From a virus (taxonomy: Duplodnaviria > Caudoviricetes), in IMG/VR virus record IMGVR_UViG_3300048861_000045, positions 1 through 51,392 of that record: 51,392 nucleotides of DNA; one strand, written 5' to 3'. Numbering within the stretch: position 1 is the first letter of the stretch; the number at the start of each line of letters is the position of its first letter. Positions 1,384-50,232 of the stretch are shown piece by piece. Below the pieces are notes generated by a model that did not search any database, was not told the origin of the DNA, and worked only from the letters and a program-made list of their open reading frames with translations. The translations under genes and the position numbers were made by a program.

Positions 1384-1449
1384 CGTGTCGTCTATAGCCC
1401 ACACATGGGCGGCTTGTACAGCGCCCATTCACTTTTGGAAGGAGAGAGT

Positions 1450-1998
1450 ATGGCATCTCTGATGGATCACAAAGTAAATATCGGTATCGAAGCGATCTTC
1501 GACGGCAATGCAGCGAAGGCCGCAATCATCAACAACCTTGCTTTGGATGTTCACGAAGCAAACGCAAAGTGGTGGATCGATCTCCAGACTGGTGAGCCGC
1601 TGAAGCGCAACATTGGCGAGCTGCTGTGCCTCGTTCACAGCGAGATTGATGAAGCTCAGCAAGGTCGACGCAACGAACAAGAGATGGCGAACAACATCTA
1701 CGCTCTCTATCAACAGACAGTTTCGATCAATGGAGCCAACGCAGAAGCGTTGCTTGAGCTTCATCGTGCAATCAGCAGAGCGATGGAAGGTCATCGCAAG
1801 TCGATTGCTGACGACAAGCTTCCTCATCGCACCATGTTTGAAGTCGAGCTTGCAGATGCCTTCATTCGCATCCTCGATCTCGCTGCTGGCAACAACCTCG
1901 ATCTCGGCGGTGCATACGTAGAGAAGATGGCCTACAACGCACAGCGAGCCGATCACACACGCGAAGCTCGCCTCGCTCCTGGTGGAAAGGCTTACTAA
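1450..1998 (+). CDS. MazG-like NTP pyrophosphohydrolase
   Basis: ELLCLVHSEIDEA, MEGHRK, EVELADAFIRILDLA and EKMAYNAQR; RBS GGAGAG before the ATG at 1450. Confidence 0.8.
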   Translation: MASLMDHKVNIGIEAIFDGNAAKAAIINNLALDVHEANAKWWIDLQTGEPLKRNIGELLCLVHSEIDEAQQGRRNEQEMANNIYALYQQTVSINGANAEALLELHRAISRAMEGHRKSIADDKLPHRTMFEVELADAFIRILDLAAGNNLDLGGAYVEKMAYNAQRADHTREARLAPGGKAY

Positions 1999-1999
1999 C

Positions 2000-2620
2000 A
2001 TGCGCACACTGCGACGAATTGTGATTGCGCTGCTGACAGTTTCGATTGGCTTCTCTACCGCCGTCGTGACATCTGAGACCTGCCGCAAGGTCACGTTCGA
2101 TGCTCTGTGGGCAGCAAAGTTGAAAGCTCAGAAGATTTGGAACAAGAACAATCCTGGTTACGTGAAAGAGCACAACCTGACGCGAGATATGTCGAAGCAA
2201 ACTGCTCGTTCAAAGGCTTGGCTGAAGAAGCAATTGGAGGTTCAGTGTGCGAGTTTGGTTGATGATGTTCTTGCTGGTAGCGATGGCCTGGGAATTAGAG
2301 ATATCGATTCTATGGCCCTTGTTGTTCCTCTGTTCGAAACTTCTGCGGACCTACCGCTTGAAGATGCTCAGTTATCACAACTGATCGCTAAGCAGGAGTA
2401 TCCAAGTTATGAAAATCCTTCGCGTGATGCAACGGATGATGGAGGGTTCGGAACCAACCCAGGCTTTGGTGGTTGGTATGGCGGTGGTGGCTATGCTGGC
2501 GGTCATCCTGGGAGCGGCAATAGCGTTCCTCCACCCATAACGACGGTGCCCGAGCCGTCGACGTTTGTATTGGTCTTTGCACCGTTCCTATCTTTGTTCT
2601 TTCTGAGGAAGAGACGATGA
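2000..2620 (+). CDS. secreted PEP-CTERM sorting-domain protein
   Basis: N-terminal signal peptide MRTLRRIVIALLTVSIGFSTA, Gly-rich linker, C-terminal VPEPSTFVLVFAPFLSLFFLRKRR. Confidence 0.85.
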   Translation: MRTLRRIVIALLTVSIGFSTAVVTSETCRKVTFDALWAAKLKAQKIWNKNNPGYVKEHNLTRDMSKQTARSKAWLKKQLEVQCASLVDDVLAGSDGLGIRDIDSMALVVPLFETSADLPLEDAQLSQLIAKQEYPSYENPSRDATDDGGFGTNPGFGGWYGGGGYAGGHPGSGNSVPPPITTVPEPSTFVLVFAPFLSLFFLRKRR

Positions 2621-2871
2621 GCGAGCGCTTCTGTCACTACTGCGAACAACCCAAGTGCAAGTGCCGTTATCGTGCCGGTCGCAAAGGCGAGTTCTCACTT
2701 GAATGTCAGAACCACTCGCGACAAACAACCATCGGCGAATTGAAGAAGTTTGTCTCTGCAATCACTCTTGACGACTCGACGCCTGCTGTATGGCTGATGA
2801 GTTACACAACGATTGATCCCAACAAACCAACGAGAACGAAAGCTAAAAGCAATGAGCCGTCCGTGCGGTAA
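2617..2871 (+). CDS. hypothetical protein, Cys-rich N-terminus
   Basis: ATGA overlap with the upstream gene; CHYC..CKC. Confidence 0.6.
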   Translation: MSERFCHYCEQPKCKCRYRAGRKGEFSLECQNHSRQTTIGELKKFVSAITLDDSTPAVWLMSYTTIDPNKPTRTKAKSNEPSVR

Positions 2872-3061
2872 TCCCCTCTGTGGGCTTCATCGTGGTCACA
2901 AAGAGAATCATCGAGAAACAGTGTTGTTGGCATACGAAGCTGCTGATGAACTTCTATCGAAGTATCTAGGACCGCTCCACCCTGTTCGTTCTGAACTACG
3001 AAAGCTGATAAAGAGACATGATCCAGCCAGTAACAAAACTAGTTCAAATAACTCCTGTTAG
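2852..3061 (+). CDS. hypothetical protein (CxxxxC..H..H)
   Basis: Fills the operon gap and overlaps its neighbours. Confidence 0.5.
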   Translation: MSRPCGNPLCGLHRGHKENHRETVLLAYEAADELLSKYLGPLHPVRSELRKLIKRHDPASNKTSSNNSC

Positions 3062-3932
3062 CCCACAAGAGGCCGCGCAGTTCGATCTCTCTACGGCTGA
3101 CGGGAGATTCCAAATTGCTGATCGCTTGCTGCGCGATATAAACGAGTGGTGCAAGAAGGCATTCGATGATGGACCGCGTACACACCTTGGAGCTTCGATC
3201 ATCGCGGCAGAGTGCGACCGGCACATCTGGTATAGCTGGCGCTGGTTCAAGCACAAGATTTTCAGTGGCACTATGCAGCGACTTTTTCAAGATGGTCACT
3301 GGTACGAAGAGCGATTCATCGAAATGCTTCGTGGCATAGGTTGCACTGTGACCCAGGTTGACGACGACGGTGGTCAGATTCGCATCTACGACGTGCAAGG
3401 TCACTTTGGTGGATCGACAGATGGCTCTACGTTTCTTCCTCCGAGCTATAACCTACCAGTCAATTTTTTACTCGAATTCAAAACGGCTAACGACAAATGG
3501 TTTACTAAGTTCCACGATGTAGCGGAGAGCAAGCCTCAACATTGGGGTCAGATGTGTGTGTACGGATACAAGCGCGGAATCAAGTATGGAATCTATTTCA
3601 TCGTGAACAAGAACGATTCTGATCTGAAGATCGAGGTTGTTGAACTTGATTGGGCTTATGCTAAGCAACTAATCGACAAAGGCGAGTGGATTATTTATTC
3701 GCCGGTTCCACCTGCCAAGCTCAGTGATAACCCTTCAGACTGGCGCTGCAAGATGTGCGATCATCACAGCGTTTGTCACATGGGAGTCGAGCCGGATGTC
3801 AACTGTCGAACGTGCCGCCATTCATCGGCAATCGACAACAAGCAATGGAAGTGCAATCGTTGGAACATACTTATCCCTGGTCAGGTTGAAGCATTATCTG
3901 CTTGCACTGGCTACGAACGTTTGGTAGTCTAA
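3018..3932 (+). CDS. Cas4-like/PD-(D/E)xK exonuclease with probable Fe-S and Zn cysteines
   Basis: HLGASIIAAECDRHIWY, GSTDG, LLEFKT, QMCVY, CKMCDHHSVC and CRTC. Confidence 0.85.
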   Translation: MIQPVTKLVQITPVSPQEAAQFDLSTADGRFQIADRLLRDINEWCKKAFDDGPRTHLGASIIAAECDRHIWYSWRWFKHKIFSGTMQRLFQDGHWYEERFIEMLRGIGCTVTQVDDDGGQIRIYDVQGHFGGSTDGSTFLPPSYNLPVNFLLEFKTANDKWFTKFHDVAESKPQHWGQMCVYGYKRGIKYGIYFIVNKNDSDLKIEVVELDWAYAKQLIDKGEWIIYSPVPPAKLSDNPSDWRCKMCDHHSVCHMGVEPDVNCRTCRHSSAIDNKQWKCNRWNILIPGQVEALSACTGYERLVV

Positions 3933-3942
3933 AGTCGACATC

Positions 3943-5598
3943 ATGATTCAACTACGCCAATATCAAGAGGAAGCCGTACAAAGCGTTTTCGATTACTACG
4001 CTAGCGGCAACCAGGGCAACCCGGTGATCGCGATGCCCACAGGAACCGGTAAATCGGTCGTGATCGCTGAGTTTTGCCGCCGAGTTCTCCAGCATTGGCC
4101 GACACATAGGATCGTGGTTGCGACACATGTCAAAGAGCTGGTAGAGCAGAACGCTAAGAAAATGTTGGAGATATGGCCGACTGCACCTGTCGGCATCTAC
4201 TCAGCCGGTCTCGGCTCCCGCGACACGATGCAGTCCATCATCTTCGGCGGTGTAGCCTCGATCATTGGCGCTCAGGAGCGCTTTGGACTCCGGCACCTGA
4301 TGTTGGTCGATGAGGCGCACCTAGTGTCGCCTATAGTCGATAGCACGTACCAGAAGGTCATCAAAGGCTTCAAGCTCCTCAACCCTAACTTCAAGACTAT
4401 CGGCCTGACAGCGACCGACTACAGGACGGGACAGGGCGACATTGCCGGTGAGGGCAACCTGTTCACGGACGTTTGCTGCGATCAGACCAGCTTGAACAAG
4501 TTCAACTGGTTTATCAGCGAAGGTTATCTGTTGCCCCTGGTGCCTAAGCGCACCATGACTGAGCTTGACGTTAGCAACGTATCGATCACCAACGGCGACT
4601 ACTCGCAGAACGAGTTGCAGAAGGCTGTCGATCAGTACGGAATCACCTATCAGTGCTGCCGCGAAATTATGGAGTATGCATCGCAGAGACGGTCATGGCT
4701 GATTTTCGCATCTGGCGTCGAACACTCCGAACACGTTGCTCAGTGCTTACAGACGTTAGGTATTCAGGCTGCTGCCGTACACGCAAAGTTGACGAAGGCT
4801 GAACGTGACGAGCGAATCACTTCGTTCAAGAATGGAACGCTGCGATGCATAGTCAACAACAACGTTCTGACGACTGGATTCGACTACCCAGGTCTCGATT
4901 TTATCGGCATCTTGCGGCCAACAACCAGCACTGGTCTGTGGGTACAGATGCTAGGTCGTGGTACACGTCCTCTCTACTTCCCTGGTTACGATCTCAGCAC
5001 AAAGGAAGCTCGCCTTGCAGCAATCGCCCACAGCAGAAAACAGAACTGCCTCGTCCTCGACTTCGCCGGTAACACACGGCGTCTTGGCCCTATCAATGAT
5101 CCTGTGCGGCCTAAGAAACGCGTCAAAGGCAGTACGCCAGGAGTCGCACCTATCAAGATTTGTCCGAAGTGCGGCGTTTACAACCATGCTTCCGCAACGC
5201 GATGTGAGAACCCTGCCTGCGATGCCGTCTTCGAGCGAGCCGCAAAGCTCCTTCATGAAGCCAGTCGCGCCGAACTTATCCGTGCTGATGAACCTGTATA
5301 TCAGACCTTACCAGTCCAGCGGGTCTTATACACCAAACAGAACTTGAAGGGTAGACCGCCTGCATTGAAGGTTAGCTACTTCTGCGGCATGGATCACGTA
5401 ACAGAGATGCAGTTCTTCGAGAACAAAGGATCGTTCGCTCGCACTTCTGCGCGTCGTTGGTGGAGAGAGCGCAACGCTGGTGAACCACCAGATACGGTCG
5501 ATCTCGCGTTACAGATGCAGGAGTTTCTTCGCGAGCCTAAAGCGATCAAAGTCCAGTACAACCTCAAAAATCCGAAAATCGAGGAGTACATCTGGTAA
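3943..5598 (+). CDS. superfamily 2 DEAH helicase (RadD/YejH-like) with Zn ribbon
   Basis: LRQYQ, PTGTGKS, VDEAH, GLTAT, LTTGFDYP, QMLGRGTR and CPKC..C..C. Confidence 0.92.
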   Translation: MIQLRQYQEEAVQSVFDYYASGNQGNPVIAMPTGTGKSVVIAEFCRRVLQHWPTHRIVVATHVKELVEQNAKKMLEIWPTAPVGIYSAGLGSRDTMQSIIFGGVASIIGAQERFGLRHLMLVDEAHLVSPIVDSTYQKVIKGFKLLNPNFKTIGLTATDYRTGQGDIAGEGNLFTDVCCDQTSLNKFNWFISEGYLLPLVPKRTMTELDVSNVSITNGDYSQNELQKAVDQYGITYQCCREIMEYASQRRSWLIFASGVEHSEHVAQCLQTLGIQAAAVHAKLTKAERDERITSFKNGTLRCIVNNNVLTTGFDYPGLDFIGILRPTTSTGLWVQMLGRGTRPLYFPGYDLSTKEARLAAIAHSRKQNCLVLDFAGNTRRLGPINDPVRPKKRVKGSTPGVAPIKICPKCGVYNHASATRCENPACDAVFERAAKLLHEASRAELIRADEPVYQTLPVQRVLYTKQNLKGRPPALKVSYFCGMDHVTEMQFFENKGSFARTSARRWWRERNAGEPPDTVDLALQMQEFLREPKAIKVQYNLKNPKIEEYIW

Positions 5599-11300: not shown

Positions 11301-14300
11301 CTTTCTTGAACTACTAGCGTCGGCACCTGCAACCAATATGTCGACTGAGCTAGACCTGGATCAATAAAGGTGATCGTGTCTCCGCTCTTAGTTACGGTGC
11401 AGTTCACAGACACAGGGAACGTATCGCTAGCATCGACGGCTGACATCGCGTATCCGCTGATGGTCGCAACAGGATTGACCCATCCACTACCACCGTTGAT
11501 GATCGTTACCGAATTGACGTTGAAGTATTCCCTTCCAAGTGTTCCGTTCGGCAAGCTCTCTGGTGGGTAGCGCGACGTTACGAGATTGAACTGTGCGTTG
11601 TGAGGATCGCCGGAACCTGGGTCTCCAATCACTCCTGTAAATCCACTGTTGGGAATCGATTCGTAATCACCAAGATTGACTGAGCCGTTTATGAAATCCT
11701 GATCTCGCGAGTAGTAGCGATCATCGTAGTTCACAGCCTTGACCGTATATTGCATTCCGTCTTCAGGGTCTTTTTCTGACAACAAGAATGCCTTCGCGAC
11801 GTTGCTGCTGGTCGTCTGATCGACAATCCAATATGTTGTCGCCGCGTACTTGTCAGGATCGAGAACGAGCGGAACGATAGGAGCGCGTTGAAGATTGAGC
11901 GCCATCGATCTACTCTTTCCTTCATCGGTAGTGGTGATCGTTCCTGCTTGAGCTGTAACGACTATGCTGTCGACCGCACCATCGTAACGCTGAAGAAAGA
12001 TGATGTAGTTGTGGCCACCGATAACATCAAAGTTCTGCGACAAGAATAGAGTCAAGCCTGACTGTCCAGTGATTTGACCATCCTGTGTGTCAGCGCGAGT
12101 ATTGTCGGCGACTAGAATGCGATCCTGCAAAACAAGCAACGCAGCTTCCTGAGTCGATTTGAAGTCAACAGCAGTGTTCTGATAGATCAGCTTGTTATAA
12201 AGACGCCAGCCGAGCATCCATGCTTGCACACGATTCCGAATCCCCACAGAGGTTATCTTTTTAGGATTGACTGCGCTTTGATCGGGTGGAAAGTGCAGCG
12301 TCACCGTGGTATCGAGATCAGGATAATTCGGAGCAAACGGATCGATGTAATCCAACTCGATTCCGTCATAATCGTTTGTCTTGCCGAACGTGATCGTGCG
12401 CGTCTCGCTGCCTGGAATTTTGTTGCGATGGTTGAAAAGGAGAACGCTGTTTGCAGTCTGCCGCTCGAATGAAACAGACATCACGCTCCCGCGTCGAAAC
12501 GCAGTGCAGAACGTCGCCTGTGTAACGTCAGCAACAGACTCCTCGAAAGAGACTTGAGCATCGTCAAACGTGTAGCAAAACTCGGTGCATAGAGATGTGC
12601 CGAAATAGCTCTGCACTGATCCAGATGGACCAAGCACTGAGTACAGCTCTGCAACGTCGATCTCGGCCAAGGTTCTATTTCCGATATATGGTTCGGTTGC
12701 GAGATACATCAAAATGTCGGCAGCGTTCTTCGTTGCAATCGGTGCGCTCGCTGATCCACTCGCATACGACGGCAGCAAACGTGTCACTTGAAGATTTAGC
12801 TTGCGAGCCTTCACCGACAATGCGCTCGCGGTCGCATAGGTCAACGTCTGGATCGTTGTCACGTTGCCAAAGTTACTGACTGCTATAGGCGACACGGCAT
12901 ATAAGTCTCTCCACTGAACCTGATCGTTGACAGTTCCGTCGAAGTCTTTATCTGAAGCCGTAAGTCTGATGGCGCTTATTTGGCAGACACCAGCAACAGA
13001 ACCGTTAGCTCTTGTGGGCAGCTTGCACTTGACCGTCACGCCTCGCTGACTCTGCAAAACTGCTGAGCCTACCAGCGTTCCAGTGAACGCGATGATATCG
13101 CCAACAGGCTGATAGCTCGCATTCAAAGCCTGCAATTCGATCTGAACATCTACATCGATTGGATATTGATTGCCGCTCTCGTTGCTAATCTTGAAGAGAC
13201 CGTTTGGCGCTACGAAGTTGCACCAAACCTCAGTCATAGAGCCAACATTCAAGATGAATGGGCCGACGTGCCTGTCGTTCAAGTCCACAAGAACAGGACT
13301 GCCGTATGTGCTTGCAGCGCCAGTGAAGGATGCCAACGCTGCCCATCCTGCGGACACCGAGCTAGGATTCGCGAGAGTGAGAGAGTTGGTTGTTACAGCA
13401 AGCAAAGTGTAATCGCCAACAACACTGACGTTCGGATGAACGTGACCAGGATCAGCAGCATCGCCGTATACCAAACTAACGGTGTCACCAACAGCATAGT
13501 AGGCATTGAAGTCTATTGTGCCGTCGTTCGTCTCGACTGTTCCTGCTGCCGTTACACGAATGTTGTCCTTGCCCGTAAGATTACTGGCGTTTGGAGCACG
13601 TAACACTTGACCGTTGACACAGTTCGATGGCTGAATGTTTACGATTTGCGTGTTGATTGGATCTCCGACAGCCAACTGCGGAGCGTTGCCGGAGTTTGGC
13701 GATGTATTGGGGCCATAGATCGCAAAGCTTGAACCGTCGATCTCCTGAAGTGGAGTTGTATCGTCCTTCACGTCCCATACCACAGTCGGATCATCAACCG
13801 ATGTCGAATGAGTTTGCTCGATCTGATAGCTTCCCTTTCCGATGCAGCCGTAGAAGTGTTCAACCTCTTGGTTGTTGATGAAATACTTGTACGGCACGGC
13901 GATCAAGTCAGGCGTAGAGCGTACTGTACCCACAATGTCAGGAATGCGCTCGTTCGGCCTATTTGTGTTCTGACGATCAGAGAGCGAGTTGTTTGGAGAA
14001 GGCTGCTGGTTGTTCTGATTGAGCTTCGTGTTCGGCCTGATAAGGAAGGAGATGCCGATAGCGACCGCTGCAAGTACGACCGCAACGATGATTGCGATGA
14101 CTTCGAAGCCTTCTGGATACAGGACAACGTAGACATTGCCATTCAGTTTGCCGAGGGCTTCGATCTCATGCTCGTTCTTTGGCGTCACATCGCACGACTG
14201 AGCGACAGACCGGTGATAGATGCGAGCTGTCTTTGGAAACACAGGCCATTTGCTCTGAAACAGAGCGTGAATGTCTTCAACGTTATCGAACACTTCTCCA

Positions 14301-20900: not shown

Positions 20901-21528
20901 TTTCGAGCCAGATGACGCCTTGCGCTTCGAGCGCGGCGGTCGTCTCAGCCAGGGTTGCGCCAAAGACCTGCTCTTGTTGCGTCGTTGCTTTGATCGCGGC
21001 AGTGCTCAGCTCATAGCTTGCAGCCATCTTCAATATCGATTCGCTGTATGCCTGTGCTTCAGCGATTATGCTTTCGTACTCAACAACGCCAGCAGCAACC
21101 GCTTCGTTGATCGCCTCTTGCATGGCCAACTCTTCGGCCATCGCGGCAGCAGTGTCGCTACTATTTGCAGCCATGACCGCATTTGCGTTTGCCTGTTCAG
21201 TGATCGCTGCTGCTGCTGACTTGGCACCCGCTGTCTGTTTGGCTAGAGCAGAAGCGGTAACGTTCAGTGCGCTTGCAGCAGACTTCTGACTGGTAACAAG
21301 TCCTTCGGTCTCCCGCGCCAGTGCTGACGTGCTTCCCTCGGCGCTGGTGAGCAGGGACAGGAGACCACCAAGGCCAGACGACTTCAGAGAGTCGAGCTGT
21401 GCCTTCAGGGAGCCAATTTTAGAGGCTGCTTTGTCTGCGCCGTCAGCAATTGAGATAAGCCGAGGGGCTATTTGGGGGTCTACACTATTTTGGACGACAA
21501 TATCAATTGAATTGTTGCTGTCGGCCAT
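17959..21528 (-). CDS. tail tape measure protein
   Basis: 1189 aa, Ala-rich and helical; C-terminal GHKDGG.I.G.GTGRSD...LSHGEYVVNA. Confidence 0.9.
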   Translation of the reverse strand: MADSNNSIDIVVQNSVDPQIAPRLISIADGADKAASKIGSLKAQLDSLKSSGLGGLLSLLTSAEGSTSALARETEGLVTSQKSAASALNVTASALAKQTAGAKSAAAAITEQANANAVMAANSSDTAAAMAEELAMQEAINEAVAAGVVEYESIIAEAQAYSESILKMAASYELSTAAIKATTQQEQVFGATLAETTAALEAQGVIWLETFDQRRRLTTEEIVEQDQLRLATESLVSADERFAETQRLVATVMGDVISAEVRDTEAKLANAAATEALGTKIHGLTELQAASAASIVLSGVSSRRAFENFLTKTLSLGPALKAVFPIIGGVAFIEILKEAGTALYDFVRKAVDSAHNIGIAFDEAIIPLRKTNDSLAVANDKLDQTISRLEHKPTSNGAQLALDEARQAADRLDTSLQRVQGDLDKLLSKNRIGFVQSVITGQGTTNDVEASIRSAFEKIDEARSKATSALDVAAGNKDSKAAQAATVTAYEEERKAIQATITTLNAEYNARQKIQDKFKQQGTSLASTPYGSAVQYNGLKDQTANLTLLGKSVQLAQQELRGLDLTMDNIGKNKAVDALRDQTSSMRAETKLAAAEWKNLEAEFTKYQTSILQSTGKKATPQQDLNFLVGKESSINPLNASKLQAKELPFRNQIADQTFGDEAIQKLADQASALTKYGEALKETTELDRIFQEAQKKHITLSDDQIDLLTITADYIQHNVDKQRALNSVYDQANNVQKNYNDFITAADQVAADHPELQSRIAQAVAKATQSYTDATQPLFEYSRGLEQQTELYGQYGIALQVSQEIQQVENQLRQQGITLSTQEEAQLRTTLTLLAQRNLIEAASRDLYDQTTGSLQKLAAQKVAVNNAATTELSNMAKQSQLARINNQINDSNLANGQATSQKSPFAGALADYVSNFTTAAKQIKQVYSDTFKTIADGIADSIGRAIVYADNLGDAFKDVARNAISQLISGLIKVGLQMLVLKAVTAIFGETETTSNTAAAATTAAAWAPAASLVSLATLGANAGPASAGIIATTAISETVAALSGIGIAGHKDGGLIVGAGTGRSDSNLRLLSHGEYVVNAAATSKNLDLLHAINSGGAQKGQTVQQTRSGSVGSSPQMKVVIEDHTSGVKFQKVQIGASEMRIIAQDAAEQAVSQHSDLAVANAVNNPNSKTSKALRTSTTARRQR

Positions 21529-21539
21529 AGTCTACACTC

Positions 21540-24791: not shown

Positions 24792-25241
24792 TCACTTAGT
24801 TGTTCTGTAGGTGCAGGTGATAACTACGTTCACTTGGTTCTTTGTTTCATTTCCGGCAACGGGAGAAACCCTCTGCCCCCGAAACCAAACTTCGCCTGAC
24901 GTTGAAGGTGTGCAGAACGCATTCCTCACTACGTCAGCCATCTGCTTTGCGGTGCGTAATGCGCTCGCCTTCTTCTTCGGCGCATAAATCTGCATCGCAA
25001 ACAATCCGTCTTCCTCGTACGTGCTCACACCCTGATAGCGGCTCAGTGATGCTTGCTCTGCGGTAACGACACTGAAACTGCACCGCGCATAAATCTCATC
25101 AACGTCTGCTGGTGGAACAGGGCTATCGGGAAAATAGAGCTTCGGTTGATAGTGCAATCCGCTGCCGTCTATAGACGACACCCATGCCCTGTTTGCGATA
25201 CCGTAAATCTCGTCTTCGGCTTGTAGATAGGTGATGCTCAC
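24792..25241 (-). CDS. tail terminator-like protein
   Basis: GLFAMQIYAP..G.VWFR; synteny. Confidence 0.65.
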   Translation of the reverse strand: MSITYLQAEDEIYGIANRAWVSSIDGSGLHYQPKLYFPDSPVPPADVDEIYARCSFSVVTAEQASLSRYQGVSTYEEDGLFAMQIYAPKKKASALRTAKQMADVVRNAFCTPSTSGEVWFRGQRVSPVAGNETKNQVNVVITCTYRTTK

Positions 25242-28898: not shown

Positions 28899-29999
28899 TT
28901 AGGTTCTGTCGTCTATGGTCGACATAGTTATGAAATCGATCTTCTTATGGTATTGAGTAAGTGTCAAGGGAATTACAACTCCACTTATAGAAATGTCCTT
29001 CGCTGACTTACTACCTGCCAAGATGCTCGCTGCTAGAGTTACACCAAGCATGTCAACCAGCACCGCTTTAGGTTGTGTGATCAACCATGCGTAGAACGTA
29101 TCAGGGATGTTGTGAAGCTCTGACCCCTCGACTAGCGAGACAGCTTTACTACGGCAGTTGTAGTGAGCTGGCGGCAATGGTCCTTCACCGTAGACGAACA
29201 CTTTGCCGTCAAGCGACATACATATTTCGGTTGTTCTGCTGTCAAGGATTGCAACCCATTGATATTCGTTATAGTAGACGCTGGCGATTGCTGCTTGAGC
29301 CATGCTGCTTATGTGCTGAAGAACAGTTGCGATCAAGGATGTGTTCTGGTTATTGAAGGTGTTGAACAGACCATCTCTGAACTTTAGATCAGGCTCACCG
29401 ACGATCTCAGCTAATGCGTCTTGCGGCGTTTTGCCTAGCGCATAACCTATCGTCAATACACGTCGAGTACGTTCCATCGCTGACTGTGCGAAGCTATCGA
29501 AGGCTTCTTCTATAGTCAGACCTATGCCTGGGATGATCGCTTTGGATATGGATGCCCACAGGAGATTGTTGGCGTCGTTAGTGCCTAGCGTATGCCCGAC
29601 ACCTAGAGTAGAAGGCTTATCGTCAGGCTGTGGCTTGTGGTCGGCAGTCGTAACACCTGCGACTGCTTTATAGATCGCTTGTGTCACGCCCACGTCGGCT
29701 GCAAGGAACTGTTTTAGCAACCCTATAAGTTGCTTGGTGTACCTGCTGTAAAAGATTTGCTGTGCTAATTGAAAGCGCCTAATGAATTCGTTCAGTTCAG
29801 CTTTGGTGAATGCATCTAGGGTTGAATACCTTGTCTTGCCGATGTACTTTGCAAACTCATCGTACAGTTCATTCAGAATCGCTTTGTAGTTCCCTGCAAA
29901 GCCAGATTTGACACCCTCTAGATAAACCTGATGACGAAACAAAAGATCGAACAAGTACCGATTCGAAGGTGTGTTTAGATTGTCCAGTCTCTTGTTCAT
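28899..29999 (-). CDS. minor head morphogenesis protein (Mu gpF/SPP1 gp7-like)
   Basis: WVAILDSRTTEICMSLDG..PPAHYNCRS. Confidence 0.9.
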   Translation of the reverse strand: MNKRLDNLNTPSNRYLFDLLFRHQVYLEGVKSGFAGNYKAILNELYDEFAKYIGKTRYSTLDAFTKAELNEFIRRFQLAQQIFYSRYTKQLIGLLKQFLAADVGVTQAIYKAVAGVTTADHKPQPDDKPSTLGVGHTLGTNDANNLLWASISKAIIPGIGLTIEEAFDSFAQSAMERTRRVLTIGYALGKTPQDALAEIVGEPDLKFRDGLFNTFNNQNTSLIATVLQHISSMAQAAIASVYYNEYQWVAILDSRTTEICMSLDGKVFVYGEGPLPPAHYNCRSKAVSLVEGSELHNIPDTFYAWLITQPKAVLVDMLGVTLAASILAGSKSAKDISISGVVIPLTLTQYHKKIDFITMSTIDDRT

Positions 30000-33971: not shown

Positions 33972-34340
33972 TTACTGTTGAACAGGTTGATTTGAAGTCG
34001 GTGCGGGGAACGTCGGTGCAGGCTGATCTTCTGGAACGGTTACTGTTGGCGGTGCGATACTGATTTGCTGAGTTGCACTTGGGAACAACGAAGTGAACGC
34101 AGCAACCTTCGATTCAGCCAGGGATAGATCAGTCTTGAGATCGAGAATGACTTGGCTTGTCTCGCCTCTTGCTCTCTCGAAAGCAGTCTTCAATTCGTCA
34201 GCCTGAGCCTGAAGCGCAGCTACTTCCTTCGCATGTTTCTCTTTCACTTCGCTAACGCAGTTTGCAACGAAGGTTCGAACTGTGGGACCAGCGATGATGC
34301 CAACAACAAACGCAATGGCAATGTAGACAATAGACGACAT
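33972..34340 (-). CDS. membrane-anchored coiled-coil protein (lysis cassette)
   Basis: N-terminal TM, coiled coil, Pro-rich tail; RBS GGAGG. Confidence 0.55.
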   Translation of the reverse strand: MSSIVYIAIAFVVGIIAGPTVRTFVANCVSEVKEKHAKEVAALQAQADELKTAFERARGETSQVILDLKTDLSLAESKVAAFTSLFPSATQQISIAPPTVTVPEDQPAPTFPAPTSNQPVQQ

Positions 34341-36130: not shown

Positions 36131-36159
36131 ATAGTAACACTGTCGACTATTGACGACAA
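36131..36159 (-). promoter_or_regulatory. late operon promoter TTGTCG-N17-TACTAT, leaderless, overlapped by a perfect 18-bp operator (36141-36158)
   Basis: 17-nt spacer; ATG 6 nt downstream of the -10; TGTCGACTATTGACGACA. Confidence 0.65.
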
Positions 36160-36889: not shown

Positions 36890-37159
36890 CTAAATTTGAT
36901 ATTGTTTGATCAACCAAGTTCGTTGATTGTCGACACCATTCTCCTTCCACGTTTCCAGATAACCTATGCAAACTCCTGGCAGATGCTTGAACATGCCGAG
37001 TGCAACAGGAGTGATGTCGTGATCAACATTTCCAACGGCATCCCTCAATTGATTGAATGCTTCAGTCAGAGATGTGTTGACAATAGACGACATTGGATCG
37101 CCAGCCGAATAACTACCGTCGCCGTGATCAATTCCTTCTACAATCAGATACTTGCTCAT
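36890..37159 (-). CDS. hypothetical protein
   Basis: RBS GGAGAG before MSKYLIV. Confidence 0.6.
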   Translation of the reverse strand: MSKYLIVEGIDHGDGSYSAGDPMSSIVNTSLTEAFNQLRDAVGNVDHDITPVALGMFKHLPGVCIGYLETWKENGVDNQRTWLIKQYQI

Positions 37160-37226: not shown

Positions 37227-38162
37227 TCATAGCTCGCTGTTATACGCATCCGCAGCGTCAGCTGATGCCCCTCCGACCGCGCCTTCCCAATAACGCGAAA
37301 CAAGCTTCAGCTCTTCCCTTGATTTGCGTTCCCTTTCGAGCGCGGCGTTGAACTTCTTCATATCGAGTCTGCCGACTATAGACGACATGACCAATCTGTC
37401 TATCTCACGCGACGGCAGCGCGTCAAGCTCCCAGGACGTATCACCAAAGCGTCTGATGTACTCCTGTGCTCTGCTGTCAGTGAGCTTCGCTGGATCAGGT
37501 GGAAGGCTGTAGGCTTCTATCTGATCCTGATTTAGCGCCAAGCGCACCAGCTCGACGCCTGCGAGGGTTCTGGTGAACATGTTTAGACGTTCATCGTTGT
37601 CTCGACTCATGTCCAGGCCGCTAGGATCGTGATCGCCCAGGTGGAAGACGGTAATATGCTTTCCCTGGTCCATCTTGCGCCTGAGCCGCACTCCAGCCTC
37701 ATAGAGACCGGACTGAGACGCATACCCCCTGCAAGCGAAGAACGGAACGCGATAGGTGACACAAGGGCGCTCGATCACGCCAACTAGAGCGTCTTTCTCA
37801 ATCCAGACCTCGCAGTAGGCGTCCTGGTCTGCCCACAAGTCCTCAGCAAAGTAATCGGTCTGCTTGGTGACGAAGTGACCAGGGCCATCGTAGGTTGGAA
37901 TCTCACGAACAACGCGCATACGATCTTCAATGGCATCCCAATCGATCAGACCTGCCAGCCTAGCATCGTTGATCACGCTGCCGATTCGCTTGTATTCGCT
38001 CTGCTTGTTTTCGATCAGCTTGCGGTGAACAAACTGGTAGTAGAGCTGGCGAAGGGTTAGTACATAACCCTCGGCCTGATGCTCGCGGATGATGATATTT
38101 GCATGGTCGATGATCGCTCGACTCGACCTGTTGAACCTCTTTTCAATGAACGCTTCTTTCAT
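37227..38162 (-). CDS. Topoisomerase VI subunit A/Spo11-like TOPRIM protein
   Basis: LRQLYYQ (Tyr-bearing winged helix), EVWIEKDA, GDHDPSG and WELDAL. Confidence 0.75.
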   Translation of the reverse strand: MKEAFIEKRFNRSSRAIIDHANIIIREHQAEGYVLTLRQLYYQFVHRKLIENKQSEYKRIGSVINDARLAGLIDWDAIEDRMRVVREIPTYDGPGHFVTKQTDYFAEDLWADQDAYCEVWIEKDALVGVIERPCVTYRVPFFACRGYASQSGLYEAGVRLRRKMDQGKHITVFHLGDHDPSGLDMSRDNDERLNMFTRTLAGVELVRLALNQDQIEAYSLPPDPAKLTDSRAQEYIRRFGDTSWELDALPSREIDRLVMSSIVGRLDMKKFNAALERERKSREELKLVSRYWEGAVGGASADAADAYNSEL

Positions 38163-39307: not shown

Positions 39308-39433
39308 GATTGGCCTTTGAACCAGAGTCAGTTAGAGACACCAAGGAAAATGCTCCTCGTAACTAACTGATTCTAAAGTGCCTTCTATAGTCTACAGCGT
39401 AAAGAAAGGCTTTAGAATCAGTACATGTTTTGC

Positions 39434-41944: not shown

Positions 41945-41970
41945 TGCCGTCTCCGTGTTGACTATTGACG

Positions 41971-41999
41971 ACAGTACCAGCGATTCTAAACAGTGTCAA
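41971..41999 (-). promoter_or_regulatory. xis/tRNA/int promoter TTGACA-N17-TACTGT with operator 41956-41973 over the -10/+1
   Basis: Consensus -35, 17-nt spacer, TGTTGACTATTGACGACA. Confidence 0.7.
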
Positions 42000-42216
42000 C
42001 GGCTTTTTATACGTCAAAAGTAGTATTTAGGTGGCTTTCTCTGTGCAAAAACTACCCGAAATGACGCAAAAGTTCGCACCATAGGGAAGATTTTACCGAA
42101 AGCAGCCTATAGACGACCGTAATACCGCCTATCAACTACAGGCTGCTTCGCGTACATCGGCTATGGACGATCAAACGATTGGCGCTCGTTACATTCTTGA
42201 TGCCCACAATGAATCC

Positions 42217-42483
42217 TCAAACTCCCTTTACTAATTGCGAGATCGTCATCGAGAACACTTCGGCCAATTGCGCCAGCGTATCAATAGTAGGAGCCTTCTT
42301 TCCGTTCTCTAGGTCGCTAATGTAACTGCGATCCAGCTCGGATGCTGTTGCAAGCTGTAGTTGCGTCAAACCACGCTCTGACCTCAGTTCCGCTAACTTG
42401 ATTCCAAACCTGCTCGCTGGTGTTGATGTCGGTCTATACGTTGGTGGTGGTGTTCCATCATGGTTATGCATAGTCGTCTCCAT
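42217..42483 (-). CDS. XRE-family HTH transcriptional regulator
   Basis: LRSERGLTQLQLATASELDRSYISDLENGKKAPTIDTL; no peptidase domain; RBS AAGGAG. Confidence 0.9.
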   Translation of the reverse strand: METTMHNHDGTPPPTYRPTSTPASRFGIKLAELRSERGLTQLQLATASELDRSYISDLENGKKAPTIDTLAQLAEVFSMTISQLVKGV

Positions 42484-42819
42484 TACTTCTTCACTCCTTC
42501 TTTTGTCTATTACATCGACCTATTTGATGTTCACTATAGTCCACGTTCTTCATTCTTTATATAAGTATTTTTGTAAAACTTCAATGTAACTTACTGTGTA
42601 TGCAGGTGTTTGCGATGATGATCGTTCTTGCTGTCGACTATTGTCCTCAGTGAGTACGTTATTGGGGTCAGCCCCAGTTTTACTTTGATGTCTAGGATGG
42701 ACGGAGATGCCTCCCGGCGCTCCTGGGTAAGCATTCTTGGGGTGGTGGGGGTCTCCTTGCTCGAATCAGCTCAATCTAAGCCACTTATAGGACGCATTGA
42801 ACAGCTATATGACTCTGTT

Positions 42820-43370: not shown

Positions 43371-43483
43371 ATATTTCAGTCGACAAGCGACGACAAACCA
43401 ACGAATCAAGCACCAATAACAGCCCAATCACTGTAGTCAATCAACTACGGTGAGGTTGTCGTATTTATTTGCGATTTATTTCG

Positions 43484-43521
43484 TATCGACTATTGACAAC
43501 ACAACGAACGTTTGAGAATCT
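43484..43521 (+). promoter_or_regulatory. early promoter (TTGACA at 43493; weak -10 GAATCT with TG extension) overlapped by operator 43484-43501
   Basis: Consensus -35 inside TATCGACTATTGACAACA; RBS GGAGG downstream. Confidence 0.5.
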
Positions 43522-44383: not shown

Positions 44384-44530
44384 ATGAACTATGCAGTATG
44401 CTTCTTTATCGTTTGTGTGTTGTTCTTCCCTGCTTTGGCTGAGCTAGTCAAGCGCGTGATTTGTGGCGCGTTTTATAAGCAGAAGCCTGTCGTCTATAGT
44501 CAGCAACCTATTCGCATCAAGCGAGGTTAG
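44384..44530 (+). CDS. 48-aa membrane peptide
   Basis: RBS GAGG; hydrophobic N-terminus and basic tail; not in the ORF track. Confidence 0.45.
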   Translation: MNYAVCFFIVCVLFFPALAELVKRVICGAFYKQKPVVYSQQPIRIKRG

Positions 44531-44534
44531 ATCA

Positions 44535-44666: not shown

Positions 44667-44736
44667 CCTGTCGACTATTGCCAACAATCAACCATCAACC
44701 TAGTCCGCACATAGCGAGTGACAGGAGAGAAACAAG

Positions 44737-46621: not shown

Positions 46622-46645
46622 TGTCGTCTATTGTCTATAGCGGTT

Positions 46646-46744
46646 TATATGCCGCTAACAGCATTCCTGAATCGATCTCCTAATGAGTAGTGCGGTGGTG
46701 CGCATAAACGTTTAGAGATTTGGGAATGCTGTTAGGGGCATATA
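46646..46744 (+). other. long intergenic RNA stem-loop (RNase III-site-like)
   Basis: TATATGCCGCTAACAGCATTCCTGAATC pairs with GATTTGGGAATGCTGTTAGGGGCATATA. Confidence 0.65.
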
Positions 46745-46762
46745 GCTCCATTTGGAGATCGA

Positions 46763-49961: not shown

Positions 49962-49962
49962 G

Positions 49963-50142
49963 TTAGACACCGTGTCTCTTTGCTTTTTCCTCGACAGCTT
50001 GCCGAATGACCTCTTGAATGGGCCACGTTTTACCAGTCTGTTTTTCGAGTTTTCCCCGCAAAGAGAGCAGTTTCCTGTTCTGATCAGCCGTAAAGACCGT
50101 GCTTCGGCTTACAGGTTTTTGGTCGTCAACCTCTGTCGTCAT
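49963..50142 (-). CDS. 59-aa ribbon-helix-helix DNA-binding protein (below the ORF-track cutoff), candidate operator-binding repressor
   Basis: MTTEVDDQKPVSRSTVFTADQNRKLLSLRGKLEKQTGKTWPIQEVIRQAVEEKAKRHGV shows a strand-helix-turn-helix pattern with IQEVIRQAV; the stop lies 1 nt before the primase ATG. Confidence 0.7.
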   Translation of the reverse strand: MTTEVDDQKPVSRSTVFTADQNRKLLSLRGKLEKQTGKTWPIQEVIRQAVEEKAKRHGV

Positions 50143-50148
50143 TAGGCG

Positions 50149-50177
50149 ACACTATCAACTCGTTCGATGTTTGTAAA
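50149..50177 (-). promoter_or_regulatory. leaderless promoter TTTACA-N17-TAGTGT for the RHH-primase operon, with operator 50134-50151 over the start
   Basis: 17-nt spacer; ATG 6 nt after the -10; no RBS. Confidence 0.65.
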
Positions 50178-50203
50178 GGCTGAAAATTATTTGGATATTC
50201 CGC

Positions 50204-50232
50204 TTGACGATGTAGACAATAGCCGATATGTT
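50204..50232 (+). promoter_or_regulatory. promoter TTGACG-N17-TATGTT for the replication operon, with operator 50211-50228 in the spacer
   Basis: 17-nt spacer; AT-rich upstream element; divergent from the RHH promoter. Confidence 0.7.

What the first reader, a model, noticed from the sequence alone, without database searches (positions are those of the whole stretch)
1386..50228. Genome-wide array of about 20 copies of an 18-bp quasi-palindromic operator (stoperator-like silencing system)
Seen: the consensus TGTCGWCWATWGWCGACA occurs with 3 or fewer mismatches at 1386, 3923, 4325, 21519, 25163, 28907, 34322, 36141 (perfect), 37075, 37370, 39379, 41956, 42632, 43378, 43484, 44488, 44669, 46622, 50134 and 50211. 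Weaker copies lie near 42101, 42155, 42528 and 43432. A rough uniform-composition estimate gives about 0.2 such hits by chance in 51 kb, although the consensus was derived from these same hits. Five copies overlap promoters (late 36141, xis/int 41956, early 43484, RHH/primase 50134, replication 50211). Others cover or abut start codons (helicase, tape measure, 34340 gene) or lie just upstream of one (scaffold). Several are embedded in coding sequence, giving recurring SSIV/SSID/SPIV peptides. Known: cluster A mycobacteriophages scatter repressor sites (stoperators) to block elongation, but those are asymmetric 13-mers bound by an HTH repressor. Inference: this is an analogous, symmetric, genome-wide repression or DNA-organising system in a phage of a Gram-negative host.
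Basis: partly seen in the sequence, partly recalled or inferred. Interest (0 to 1): 0.88.

Follow-up and report, generated by a model that had tools for sequence, protein, structure and literature searches.

The report
Phage-wide array of C-box operators
A soil phage carries about twenty copies of an 18-letter DNA site of the type bound by the small 'controller' regulators of restriction systems, and it encodes such a regulator, so one protein probably silences the whole phage genome.

Summary
TGTCGWCWATWGWCGACA occurs 20 times with 3 or fewer mismatches, against 0.30 expected and 1.1 in codon-shuffled genomes.

One syntenic relative, G006 (62-73% nt identity), carries 12 copies. About 2.3 Mb of other related phage DNA has no array. 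Eight orthologous sites are 86% identical against 57% for their flanks.

Sites concentrate at gene junctions, and their better half faces upstream with respect to transcription (14:2).

The main new result is the likely binder. The 88-aa XRE protein (42217-42483) is closest in sequence and fold to restriction-modification controller (C) proteins such as C.AhdI, C.BclI and C.Esp1396I, and it shares their DRSY/DRTY recognition helix. The 18-mer has the same layout as the high-affinity C.Esp1396I operator: TG, GAC, TATA, GTC and CA at the same positions (PMC2691842, PMC3488213).

Best reading: this C-like repressor has a genome-wide operator array that blocks both initiation and elongation, like stoperators. 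One C protein is already a proven roadblock (PMC6237814).

I rate it a new variant of known kinds. Binding and silencing are inferred, not shown.

The parts
1386..1403 (+). Operator site with 2 mismatches, filling the gap between the stop of the SSB-like gene (1383) and the next ATG (1405).
   Evidence: A positional orthologue lies in G006 at 33603.
3923..3940 (+). Operator site with 3 mismatches. It overlaps the stop of the Cas4-type exonuclease gene and ends 2 nt before the helicase ATG (3943).
   Evidence: G006 has a site at the same junction, shifted by about 24 nt (35748).
4325..4342 (+). Operator-like site with 2 mismatches inside the helicase gene.
   Evidence: It is not conserved in G006.
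21519..21536 (-). Operator site with 3 mismatches. The tape-measure ATG sits at its centre.
   Evidence: It is 18/18 identical in G006 at 4892 while the flanks diverge.
25163..25180 (-). Operator-like site with 1 mismatch inside ORF 24792-25241.
   Evidence: It is not conserved in G006.
28907..28924 (-). Operator site with 1 mismatch in the last 8 codons of gene 28899-29999, 17 nt upstream of the scaffold start (28889).
   Evidence: The orthologue in G006 at 11515 is 16/18 identical.
34322..34339 (-). Operator site with 1 mismatch. It starts at the TG of the start codon ATG 34340, which is preceded by GGGAGG.
36141..36158 (-). Perfect operator site in the gap between the DUF7303 gene and the head of the long leftward structural gene block.
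   Evidence: The orthologue in G006 at 18418 is 14/18 identical.
37075..37092 (-). Operator site with 1 mismatch. It probably abuts the true start ATG 37093 of a 67-aa protein.
   Evidence: Homology to the G006 ORF 19158-19430 begins after this ATG. The start assignment is inferred.
37370..37387 (-). Operator-like site with 1 mismatch inside the phrog_6247 gene (37227-38204).
   Evidence: G006 at 19682 keeps one half (14/18).
39379..39396 (-). Operator site with 3 mismatches, 55 bp from the attP core, between 12-bp inverted repeats.
   Evidence: The orthologue in G006 at 21163 is 16/18 identical.
41956..41973 (-). Operator site with 1 mismatch, 11 nt upstream of the xis (HTH_17) ATG 41944.
42632..42649 (+). 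Operator site with 2 mismatches, 149 bp upstream of the XRE start and followed by a conserved terminator-like hairpin.
   Evidence: A weak counterpart lies in G006 at 24765 (8.0 bits).
43378..43395 (+). Operator site with 3 mismatches, upstream of the rightward early genes.
   Evidence: G006 has two sites (25492, 25532) at the equivalent place.
43484..43501 (+). Operator site with 2 mismatches, 50 nt upstream of the first early ATG (43552).
44488..44505 (+). Operator site with 2 mismatches. It is probably intergenic, about 30 nt upstream of a likely true start near 44536 with a GAGG ribosome site.
   Evidence: The start assignment is inferred.
44669..44686 (+). Operator site with 2 mismatches. 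It begins 2 nt after a stop codon and lies 50 nt upstream of ATG 44737.
46622..46639 (+). Operator site with 2 mismatches, immediately after the stop of gene 46301-46621.
50134..50151 (-). Operator site with 2 mismatches. The ATG (50142) of the 59-aa ribbon-helix-helix-like gene sits at its centre.
   Evidence: The orthologue in G006 at 30916 is 16/18 identical.
50211..50228 (+). Operator site with 3 mismatches in the spacer of the only independent promoter-like match (TTGACG-17-TATGTT), ahead of the rightward replication genes.
   Evidence: The orthologue in G006 at 30993 is 16/18 identical.
42217..42483 (-). Gene for the 88-aa XRE/HTH_3 protein with a controller (C)-protein-like fold and a DRSY recognition helix. 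This is the predicted binder of the 18-mers.
   Evidence: Pfam HTH_3, E = 9e-15. PDB profile hits: C.AhdI 1.2e-12, C.BclI 1.1e-10, C.Esp1396I about 1e-8. Foldseek top hits: C.BclI and C.AhdI, rmsd 0.8-0.9. The G006 orthologue is 41% identical and keeps helix 2 and DRSY.
49963..50142 (-). Gene for a 59-aa ribbon-helix-helix-like protein heading the primase operon. This is the rival binder.
   Evidence: No Pfam or PDB sequence hit. The model has two helices. The best structural match is the TraM N-terminal domain, Z 5.2. Homodimer ipSAE is 0.74 against 0.00 for controls.
42528..42545 (-). Weak operator-like site (4 mismatches, 12.5 bits), 45 bp upstream of the XRE start.
42101..42118 (-). Weak operator-like site (9.1 bits) between the XRE stop and the xis promoter region.
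12877..12894 (-). Weak operator-like site (4 mismatches, 14.5 bits) inside the 1015-aa ORF 11297-14344.

Best explanation
The 18-mers are operators for one phage-encoded dimeric regulator, the 88-aa XRE protein at 42217-42483. This protein is a relative of the controller (C) proteins of restriction-modification systems.

Inferred reading of the site, by analogy with the solved C.Esp1396I-OM complex:
- Arg52 reads the outer TG/CA.
- Ser53 and Lys63 read the GWC/GWC triplets.
- The central WATW is read through DNA bending.

Inferred action: made from the lysogeny module, the protein occupies about 20 sites. Sites at the heads of the xis-int, early, replication and late gene blocks would block initiation. 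Sites in the tiny gaps between genes, or on start codons, would act as roadblocks to elongating RNA polymerase. The prophage would then stay silent, including against read-through from the repressor gene itself and from host DNA at attR.

Shown here: enrichment of the motif, its conservation, its placement and polarity, and the protein's family and recognition helix.

Inferred: who binds the sites, and that binding silences transcription.
For: 1. The sites are real and under selection.
- 20 sites against 0.30 expected and 1.1 after codon shuffling.
- G006 has 12 sites.
- 8 orthologous sites are 124/144 identical, against 395/688 for their flanks.
- Other relatives have no arrays in about 2.3 Mb.

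2. The placement fits transcription control.
- Only 7.8% of the genome is non-coding, yet 10 of 20 sites are wholly non-coding and 3 partly so. 8 of 20 site centres lie within 27 nt of a start codon.

3. The sites are polar with respect to transcription.
- The 5' half is better in 14 sites, the 3' half in 2, with 4 ties.
- One-sided 12-mer seeds are co-oriented 9:3 in the window and 8:1 in G006.

4. The binder can be predicted.
- The XRE profile hits C.AhdI (1.2e-12), C.BclI and C.Esp1396I, and the LDRSY recognition helix aligns with that of C.AhdI.
- The best fold matches are C.BclI and C.AhdI; the C.Esp1396I-OM complex is also listed.
- The C.Esp1396I OM operator is 18 bp, with TG at positions 1-2, GAC including positions 6-7, a central TATA dyad, GTC, and CA at 17-18. 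Only positions 4 and 15 are asymmetric and uncontacted (PMC2691842 and PMC3488213, passages read). Our motif has the same letters at the same positions.
- In our sites, positions 4 and 15 are the least conserved apart from the W positions.
- The contact-only pattern TGNNGWCWATWGWCNNCA with at most 1 mismatch gives 14 hits in the window, 7 in G006, and 0.2 per 51 kb in 2.31 Mb of other loci.
- Three XRE relatives share helix 2 but lack DRSY. All three have 0 sites within 10 kb either side.

5. A C protein can block elongation. C.Kpn2I is an experimentally shown roadblock (PMC6237814, abstract read).

6. All 7 sites with at most 1 mismatch lie at 25.1-42.0 kb. That is the leftward gene block co-directional with, and downstream of, the XRE gene. 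The simple scan found no terminator after the XRE gene.
Against: - No binding or expression data exist.
- Only two genomes carry the system, so co-variation between protein and site rests on 2 positive and 4 negative cases.
- The XRE alone scores better against DdrO-type repressors (7e-10) than against C.AhdI (1e-6).
- The residue equivalent to Arg46 is a Lys in both phages. This mapping rests on residue numbering, not on an alignment I could print.
- The XRE gene lacks the canonical double C-box just upstream and has a ribosome-binding site, so it is not leaderless.
- A dimer on a symmetric site does not by itself explain the polarity.
- Each half-site core (GTCGWC) is itself nearly palindromic, with centres 10 bp apart. 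That would also suit a ribbon-helix-helix tetramer.
- Two intragenic sites (4325, 25163) are not conserved in G006.
- Promoter assignments are not verifiable.
Confidence: 0.55

Rival explanations
1. The 59-aa ribbon-helix-helix-like protein (49963-50142) is the binder. Two dimers would each sit on a nearly palindromic GTCGWC box, with box centres 10 bp apart on one face of the helix. Its own start codon lies in the middle of a conserved site, giving autoregulation of the primase operon.
For: - Site 50134 covers its ATG in both phages.
- The homodimer model scores 0.74 against a best control of 0.00. That mark was reached by 20 of 30 proteins solved as pairs of one chain and 1 of 23 solved as single chains. 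The runs share at least 94% of contacts, and partner pLDDT is at least 83. The model has an antiparallel 11-17 ribbon. Ribbon-helix-helix dimers have been solved, so this pass may reflect likeness to them.
- The best structural match is the TraM N-terminal domain (Z 5.2, rmsd 2.3, 46 aa), and further ribbon-helix-helix rows score Z 3.2-3.6.
- The half-site cores are internally symmetric.
Against: - The family label is weak: no Pfam or PDB sequence hit, all Z scores are under 8, and the Atlas cluster carries RHH_1 in only 36% of members.
- The ribbon residues differ between the two phages (only Arg13 is invariant), although both phages have the same motif.
- No solved ribbon-helix-helix operator that I could check matches this layout. 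The C-protein operator matches position for position.
- A silencer co-transcribed with a primase is an odd lysogeny design.
Confidence: 0.13
2. The XRE protein binds the sites but works as a C-protein-style timing switch during lytic growth. It would activate from sites with one strong half and repress at high concentration, rather than silence the prophage or block elongation.
For: - C proteins activate from the distal operator and repress from the proximal one (PMC2691842 and PMC2647307, passages read).
- Sites with one strong half resemble the lower-affinity OL operator, which lacks one TG (PMC3488213).
- Contigs from a soil RNA library that are identical to the phage lie on the early region, so the phage is not only a silent prophage in nature.
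Against: - Several sites leave no room for a promoter before the next gene. The ATG lies 2 nt after the site at 1386 and 3923, and inside the site at 21519 and 50134.
- No -10 element at a fixed distance was seen downstream of the sites (flanks).
- The operator pairs spaced 15 bp apart that C-protein switches use are absent.
Confidence: 0.15
3. The sites serve something other than a phage regulator. Candidates are a host DNA-binding protein, short homology 'linkers' that promote module exchange between phages, or an RNA hairpin or translational operator on the mRNA.
For: - Nucleotide similarity blocks between the window and G006 begin or end at sites 1386, 37370 and 39379.
- Non-homologous gene sets lie between conserved sites 34322 and 36141.
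- Many sites fall within the stretch of mRNA that a ribosome would cover at start codons.
Against: - Hairpin: only 97 of 140 arm positions can pair. Positions 6 and 13 are complementary in 2 of 20 sites, and changes between orthologues are not compensated.
- Linkers: 18 imperfect bp give little homology, and this idea does not explain the strict position-specific conservation.
- Host factor: no evidence either way, but the phage encodes a regulator of exactly the matching type.
Confidence: 0.08

Closest known systems
Restriction-modification controller (C) proteins and their C-box operators, especially C.Esp1396I with its OM operator (also C.AhdI, C.BclI, C.PvuII)
   Same: - A small XRE-type HTH dimer with a D-R-(T/S)-Y recognition helix.
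- An 18-bp operator with TG, GAC, TATA, GTC and CA at the same positions, and uncontacted, variable positions 4 and 15.
- Best sequence and fold matches of the phage protein (PMC2691842, PMC3488213, PMC2647307).
   Different: - About 20 sites spread over 51 kb, instead of 1-3 at the system's own promoters.
- No linked endonuclease or methylase genes found.
- No double box 15 bp apart in front of its own gene, which also has a ribosome site rather than being leaderless.
- The context is an integrase/excisionase lysogeny module.
[quoted passage not shown]
   Same: A C-family protein bound inside a transcribed region stalls RNA polymerase. This is the mechanism proposed here for the junction and intragenic sites.
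   Different: It has one site, inside its own gene, in a restriction-modification system. Here there are many sites in other genes' junctions, and the roadblock is not tested.
Cluster A mycobacteriophage repressor-stoperator system (L5 gp71, TipsytheTRex), and its relatives in Rhodococcus cluster CA and Streptomyces R4-like phages (PMC9283540, PMC13313380, PMC10276819; passages read)
   Same: - More than 20 repressor sites at promoters and in short intergenic gaps or over gene termini.
- Orientation correlated with transcription.
- A temperate phage.
   Different: - Those sites are asymmetric 13-14-mers bound by a monomer with two domains.
- Here the core is dyad-symmetric and the predicted binder is a small C-like HTH dimer.
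- No gp71-type protein was found.
- The 12-of-14 match of our positions 4-17 to the Rasputin consensus is probably coincidence.
Phage P1 C1 repressor with 22 dispersed 17-bp operators (PMC8546580, passage read)
   Same: One repressor with operators scattered over the genome of a temperate phage of a Gram-negative host.
   Different: The operators are asymmetric and the repressor family is unrelated. They act at promoters of separate operons rather than in gene junctions.
Cluster O mycobacteriophage 17-bp dyad repeats (PMC4351075, passages read), and the T1/Stevie 22-bp oriented repeats (PMC4319613, passage read)
   Same: Tens of copies of a short repeat across the genome. Many are intergenic, and about a third are in coding sequence (Cluster O). 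Those authors also predicted a dimeric binder.
   Different: - Their function and binder are unknown.
- Cluster O phages are not obviously temperate, and their repeats show no orientation bias.
- The sequences are unrelated.
- Here a specific binder can be predicted.

Membership tests
Restriction-modification controller (C) protein / C-box system | Small XRE-type HTH protein with a (D/H)-R-(T/S)-Y recognition helix and a C-protein fold | tested here: met
   - 88 aa, Pfam HTH_3.
- Profile hits: C.AhdI 1.2e-12, C.BclI 1.1e-10, C.Esp1396I about 1e-8, with LDRSY aligned to C.AhdI LDRSY.
- Foldseek ranks 1-4 are C.BclI and C.AhdI, rmsd 0.8-1.0.
- Caveat: DdrO-type repressors score as well or better.
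Restriction-modification controller (C) protein / C-box system | Operator with TG / GAC / TATA-type centre / GTC / CA symmetric about the central dyad (18 bp in OM) | tested here: met
   The motif letters and their conservation per position were compared with the operator as described in PMC2691842 and PMC3488213 (passages read). TG is at 1-2, GWC at 5-7, WATW at 8-11, GWC at 12-14 and CA at 17-18. The triplet centres are 7 bp apart.
Restriction-modification controller (C) protein / C-box system | Paired operators (centres 15 bp apart) directly upstream of its own, usually leaderless, gene | tested here: not met
   The nearest sites are 42528 (4 mismatches) and 42632, which are 104 bp apart. 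The gene has AAGGAG 8 nt before its ATG.
Restriction-modification controller (C) protein / C-box system | Linked restriction endonuclease and methyltransferase genes | tested here: not met
   No such family appeared among the non-structural ORFs scanned with Pfam or PHROGs. The ORFs of the structural block at 11.3-36 kb were not scanned, apart from 35675-36169.
Cluster A-type repressor-stoperator system | Many repressor sites at promoters and in short intergenic gaps or gene termini across the genome | tested here: met
   There are 20 sites. 10 are wholly and 3 partly non-coding, in a genome that is 7.8% non-coding. The junction sites are conserved in G006.
Cluster A-type repressor-stoperator system | Asymmetric site in one orientation relative to transcription | tested here: inconclusive
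   The core is dyad-symmetric, but the stronger half faces upstream 14:2. One-sided seeds are co-oriented 9:3 in the window and 8:1 in G006. Transcription directions are my own block map drawn.
Cluster A-type repressor-stoperator system | gp71-type monomeric repressor with two DNA-binding domains | tested here: not met
   No such protein appeared among the ORFs scanned. The predicted binder is an 88-aa single-domain HTH.
Cluster A-type repressor-stoperator system | Repressor-dependent block of transcription elongation | not testable with these tools
   This needs reporter or transcriptome experiments.
Ribbon-helix-helix proteins (for the 59-aa product of 49963-50142) | Strand-helix-helix fold forming an intertwined dimer with a two-stranded antiparallel ribbon | tested here: inconclusive
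   - The monomer model has two helices and a loose N-terminus.
- Foldseek gave no hit at E <= 0.001.
- VIA-align's best match is the TraM N-terminal domain at Z 5.2.
- The dimer model scores 0.74 against 0.00 for controls, with residues 11-17 paired antiparallel.
- No Pfam hit even at E <= 10.

The most novel reading that the evidence does not exclude
Controller-type (C-protein) regulators are so far known only as local switches at one to three operators of restriction-modification systems. In some temperate phages they may serve as master repressors, with operators multiplied into a genome-wide polar array that stops RNA polymerase at gene junctions and on start codons. That would be a second, independent invention of the stoperator strategy, built on a symmetric dimer. 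It would also explain why most uncharacterised C-family genes lie in phage-related loci, and it might point to a phage origin of restriction-modification controllers.
Probability: 0.35. Interest if true: 0.72.

Novelty: new variant of a known kind. Interest (0 to 1): 0.56.

Why it matters
The finding links two fields that have not been connected.

- Dispersed repressor sites (stoperators) are understood mechanistically only for the unusual monomeric repressors of actinobacteriophages. Symmetric dispersed repeats, such as those of Cluster O, remain unexplained.
- C proteins have been solved in complex with DNA but are regarded as local restriction-modification switches. Yet 68% of 169 newly found family members sit in phage-related loci with no known role (PMC2632904).

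Here a concrete protein-site pair is predicted down to the contacting residues. One purified 88-aa protein and a few oligonucleotides would test it. The site polarity offers a way to ask how a symmetric dimer could block RNA polymerase directionally.

If the prediction fails, the array is still a clean, conserved example of a selected genome-wide motif in an uncultured soil phage.

Tried and rejected
**RNA or DNA hairpin.** Rejected. Only 97 of 140 arm positions can pair, positions 6 and 13 are complementary in 2 of 20 sites, and there are no compensatory changes.

**Activator site for a promoter at a fixed distance downstream.** Rejected. No common -10 element was seen, and several sites have no room for a promoter.

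**Looking for more relatives.**
- Megablast of 12 kb against cultured phages found nothing.
- Capsid relatives are at most 39% identical.
- DNA polymerase relatives G007-G010 have 0-1 sites.
- The primase profile found nothing in metagenomes.
- The terminase profile in genomes gave one distant contig binned as a Verrucomicrobiales MAG.
- 80 metagenome loci and 58 viral loci from the terminase profile gave no arrays except in G006.
- The XRE and 59-aa profiles found only G006 or relatives with other recognition helices.

**Exact-pattern scan of IMG/VR.** It found 6 contigs with a perfect site. 5 of the 6 were scanned whole and have 1-2 sites each, which is about chance.

**De novo search for analogous arrays in relatives.** My exact-dyad, k-mer-neighbourhood and dyad-family scripts were too noisy and gave nothing usable.

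**Pectobacterium phage Taid.** Its regulator is 40% identical to the XRE, lacks DRSY, and the 39.9-kb genome has 0 sites.

**The 59-aa protein.** No PDB sequence hit, no Pfam hit and no Foldseek hit.

**RNA-library contigs (run X2).** They left stretches such as 41.4-43.4 kb and 47.4-49.4 kb uncovered. Contigs cannot show absence, so I draw nothing from this.

**Supplementary files of papers were closed.**
- The supplement to PMC2632904 lists C-protein motifs and loci and could show whether similar phage-borne C-family genes were already catalogued.
- The stoperator table of PMC10276819 could not be seen either.

**Searches behind 'not in print'.** Searches returned no paper describing a genome-wide C-box array in a phage. 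The library searched is limited to open-access papers and bioRxiv.

Full report
**The record.** The window is a complete IMG/VR virus record of 51,392 bases with a 127-bp terminal repeat. In the soil sample that may be its source it assembles as a circle at depth 165.

It is a temperate tailed phage. Its features are:
- A tyrosine integrase (39573-40790) and an HTH_17 excisionase-like gene (41705-41944).
- A full tRNA-Met gene (41622-41698).
- The 3' part of a tRNA-Met-like gene at 39434-39482 next to the integrase gene. This is the likely attP core.
- A rightward replication block with Sak4-like, SSB-like, Cas4-type exonuclease, helicase, clamp and DNA polymerase genes.
- A leftward primase gene.
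- A long leftward structural block.

No cultured phage is close. Megablast found nothing, and the terminase is at most 61% identical to phages of Proteobacteria.

**The observation.**
- All 20 coordinates match TGTCGWCWATWGWCGACA with 0-3 mismatches. Shuffles gave a mean of 0.30 and a maximum of 3.
- Shuffling synonymous codons within my gene model gave a mean of 1.1 and a maximum of 3 in 60 trials.
- 13 of 16 perfect 9-mer half-sites lie within full sites, so the two-part structure is not an artefact of the search pattern.

**One relative shares the array.**
- G006 is a 42.5-kb IMG/VR contig, 82% complete and syntenic with the window. Nucleotide identity is 62-73% in alignable blocks, and the terminase and DNA polymerase are 75% and 61% identical.
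- It has 12 sites with at most 3 mismatches, while four other polymerase relatives have 0-1.
- A weight matrix trained only on window sites finds 22 hits of at least 6 bits in G006, against 4.9 in simulations.
- In about 2.3 Mb of other related loci, no locus has more than one hit.
- Nine junction or promoter-region sites are positional orthologues. They include the tape-measure site, which is 18/18 identical with the start codon at its centre, and the site on the start codon of the 59-aa gene.
- Over 8 exactly aligned pairs the sites are 124/144 identical, against 395/688 for 40-nt flanks.
- The two deep intragenic sites (4325, 25163) are not conserved.

**Placement.**
- My gene model leaves 7.8% of the genome non-coding, yet 10 sites are wholly non-coding and 3 partly so. 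8 of 20 site centres lie within 27 nt of a start codon.
- Two 'intragenic' sites probably are not intragenic. 44488 lies upstream of a likely true start with a ribosome site. 37075 abuts an ATG after which homology to G006 begins.
- All 7 ORF-embedded sites share one reading frame. I cannot explain this.
- All 7 sites with at most 1 mismatch lie between 25.1 and 42.0 kb. That stretch is the leftward block that starts with the XRE gene.

**Polarity.**
- Oriented by local transcription, the 5' half has 10 mismatches in total and the 3' half has 27. The 5' half is better in 14 sites, worse in 2, and tied in 4. The transcription map is my own, drawn.
- I then used a 12-mer seed (half-site plus centre, at most 1 mismatch), which does not force the second half to match. 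Sites that match in one orientation only are co-oriented with transcription 9:3 in the window and 8:1 in G006. Orthologous sites are not independent of each other.

**Not a hairpin.** Only 97 of 140 arm positions can pair, and positions 6 and 13 are complementary in 2 of 20 sites. Differences between orthologues are not compensated.

**Promoters.** A generic sigma-70 scan of 34.0-51.4 kb is not enriched (10 found against 15.8 in shuffles). Only 50204-50232 spans a site with hexamers of its own.

**The binder.** Three DNA-binding candidates are shared with G006:
- the XRE protein (41% identical),
- the excisionase-like protein (46% identical),
- the 59-aa protein (37% identical).

The XRE profile matches C.AhdI (1.2e-12), C.BclI (1.1e-10) and C.Esp1396I (about 1e-8), besides DdrO-type repressors. 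Its recognition helix LDRSY aligns with that of C.AhdI. Helix 2 and D-R-S-Y are invariant between the two phages while the rest of the protein diverges. The predicted fold has pLDDT 84. It is closest to C.BclI and C.AhdI (rmsd 0.8-1.0), and the list also includes C.Esp1396I bound to its OM operator.

From the papers I read passages only. They say the following:
- OM is an 18-bp site with TG at positions 1-2 and CA at 17-18, GAC/GTC triplets and a central TATA dyad.
- Only positions 4 and 15 break the symmetry.
- Mutating TG, CA or GAC abolishes binding (PMC2691842).
- Arg35 reads TG. Thr36 and Arg46 read GTC. TATA is read by bending. The asymmetric position is not contacted (PMC3488213).
- C.AhdI and C.Esp1396I belong to the DRTY subfamily, and the operator co-varies with this helix (PMC2647307).

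The phage 18-mer has these elements at the same positions, with triplet centres 7 bp apart. Positions 4 and 15 are its least conserved positions apart from the W positions. By residue numbering, Arg52, Ser53 and Lys63 correspond to Arg35, Thr36 and Arg46. This mapping is inferred.

Controls:
- A contact-only pattern (at most 1 mismatch) gives 14 hits in the window, 7 in G006, and 0.2 per 51 kb elsewhere.
- Three XRE relatives that share helix 2 but lack DRSY have no sites within 10 kb either side.
- Phage Taid, whose regulator also lacks DRSY, has none.

**The rival binder.**
- The 59-aa protein has no family hit.
- Its dimer model passes: 0.74 against 0.00 for the best control. That mark was reached by 20 of 30 proteins solved as pairs of one chain and 1 of 23 solved as single chains. 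The runs share at least 94% of contacts and partner pLDDT is at least 83. This may be likeness to solved ribbon-helix-helix dimers.
- Its weak structural neighbours include several ribbon-helix-helix proteins.
- The near-palindromic GTCGWC boxes 10 bp apart would suit such a tetramer, so it stays as a rival.

**Mechanism.**
- The shown steps are listed in the sections above.
- The inferred steps are that the C-like XRE dimer binds the sites and that binding represses transcription.
- A C protein acting as an elongation roadblock has been shown for C.Kpn2I (PMC6237814, abstract).
- The layout fits silencing. The strongest sites lie downstream of the XRE gene on its own strand, where the simple scan found no terminator.
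- Site 39379 would be the first element inside the prophage's right end, facing incoming leftward transcription. This follows and is inferred.

**Comparison and novelty.**
- Dispersed repressor sites are known in Cluster A and CA phages, Streptomyces R4-like phages and phage P1.
- Dispersed dyad repeats of unknown role are known in Cluster O, and oriented repeats in T1-like phages (PMC9283540, PMC13313380, PMC10276819, PMC8546580, PMC4351075, PMC4319613).
- C-family genes are common in phage-related loci, with an open function (PMC2632904).
- My searches returned no report of a genome-wide C-box array.
- I therefore rate this as a new variant of known kinds. It is not a member of the restriction-modification controller systems, because two defining features are not met.

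Noticed in passing
whole window, e.g. 681, 1397, 4035, 16257, 35226; G006 (L042-L044): A second over-represented word, GCCCACA (extended TGCCCACAR). The window has 32 copies against 2.5 expected from 40 second-order Markov simulations (maximum 7). G006 has 24 copies, 20 on one strand and 4 on the other, regardless of gene direction. They lie mostly inside genes, about every 1.6 kb. This could be a Chi-like or other polar DNA-level signal.
   Followed up: partly
window 39434-39482 (+), 41622-41698 (-): The 3' part of a tRNA-Met-like gene (CAT anticodon loop, T arm, CCA end) lies next to the integrase gene and is the likely attP core. It falls in a 109-bp block that is 85% identical to G006, higher than the coding DNA. 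The resemblance to initiator tRNA is recalled, not tested. The phage also carries a complete tRNA-Met gene.
   Followed up: partly
window 42820-43380: This is an AT-rich (42% GC) non-coding stretch of about 1 kb between the XRE gene and the early genes. It holds three GTTATGWCATAAC palindromes and many CATAAC/GTTATG repeats. G006 has a non-coding stretch at the same place with different repeats (GGTCTTGACCCCA-like) and a (TA)n run. It may be a replication origin with phage-specific iterons.
   Followed up: partly
window 39368-39379, 39410-39421, 41982, 42948, 43356: A third repeat, TTTAGAATC, flanks site 39379 as a 12-bp inverted pair and lies within 25 bp of sites 41956 and 43378. It could be the site of a second protein, such as integrase arm-binding or excisionase.
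   Followed up: no
window 42661-42690 (+): A terminator-like hairpin with a T-rich tail lies 11 nt after site 42632. It is conserved in G006 after its weak counterpart site. It could be a short RNA or an attenuator.
   Followed up: no
window 4325, 25163, 28907, 34322, 37075, 37370, 44488: All 7 ORF-embedded sites lie in the same reading frame (motif base 1 at codon position 2), which gives x-S-S/T/P-I-V/D. In 4 of them the preceding base makes an in-frame ATG. This is unexplained.
   Followed up: partly
window 1305-1421, 37378, 39370; 33972-36112: Nucleotide similarity blocks with G006 begin or end at or beside sites 1386, 37370 and 39379. The genes between sites 34322 and 36141 are replaced by unrelated genes in G006, so sites coincide with mosaic boundaries.
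   Followed up: partly
window 43545-47106, 49875-50131, 36648-37010, 32749-32990: Contigs of a soil metatranscriptome library (coded run X2, a different study from the source) match the phage with no differences, mainly over the rightward early genes. Contigs show neither strand nor level, and DNA carry-over is possible.
   Followed up: partly
window sites such as 37075, 34322, 46622 (transcription orientation, positions 4-17): Positions 4-17 match the published stoperator consensus of Rhodococcus phage Rasputin at 12 of 14 positions (PMC13313380, passage read). No cluster-A-type repressor was found here, so this is probably coincidence.
   Followed up: partly
window 38159-38509 (-): A weak, below-threshold Pfam match to the Tad2-like Thoeris anti-defence domain (E = 0.0026, 18.7 bits against a cut-off of 25).
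   Followed up: no
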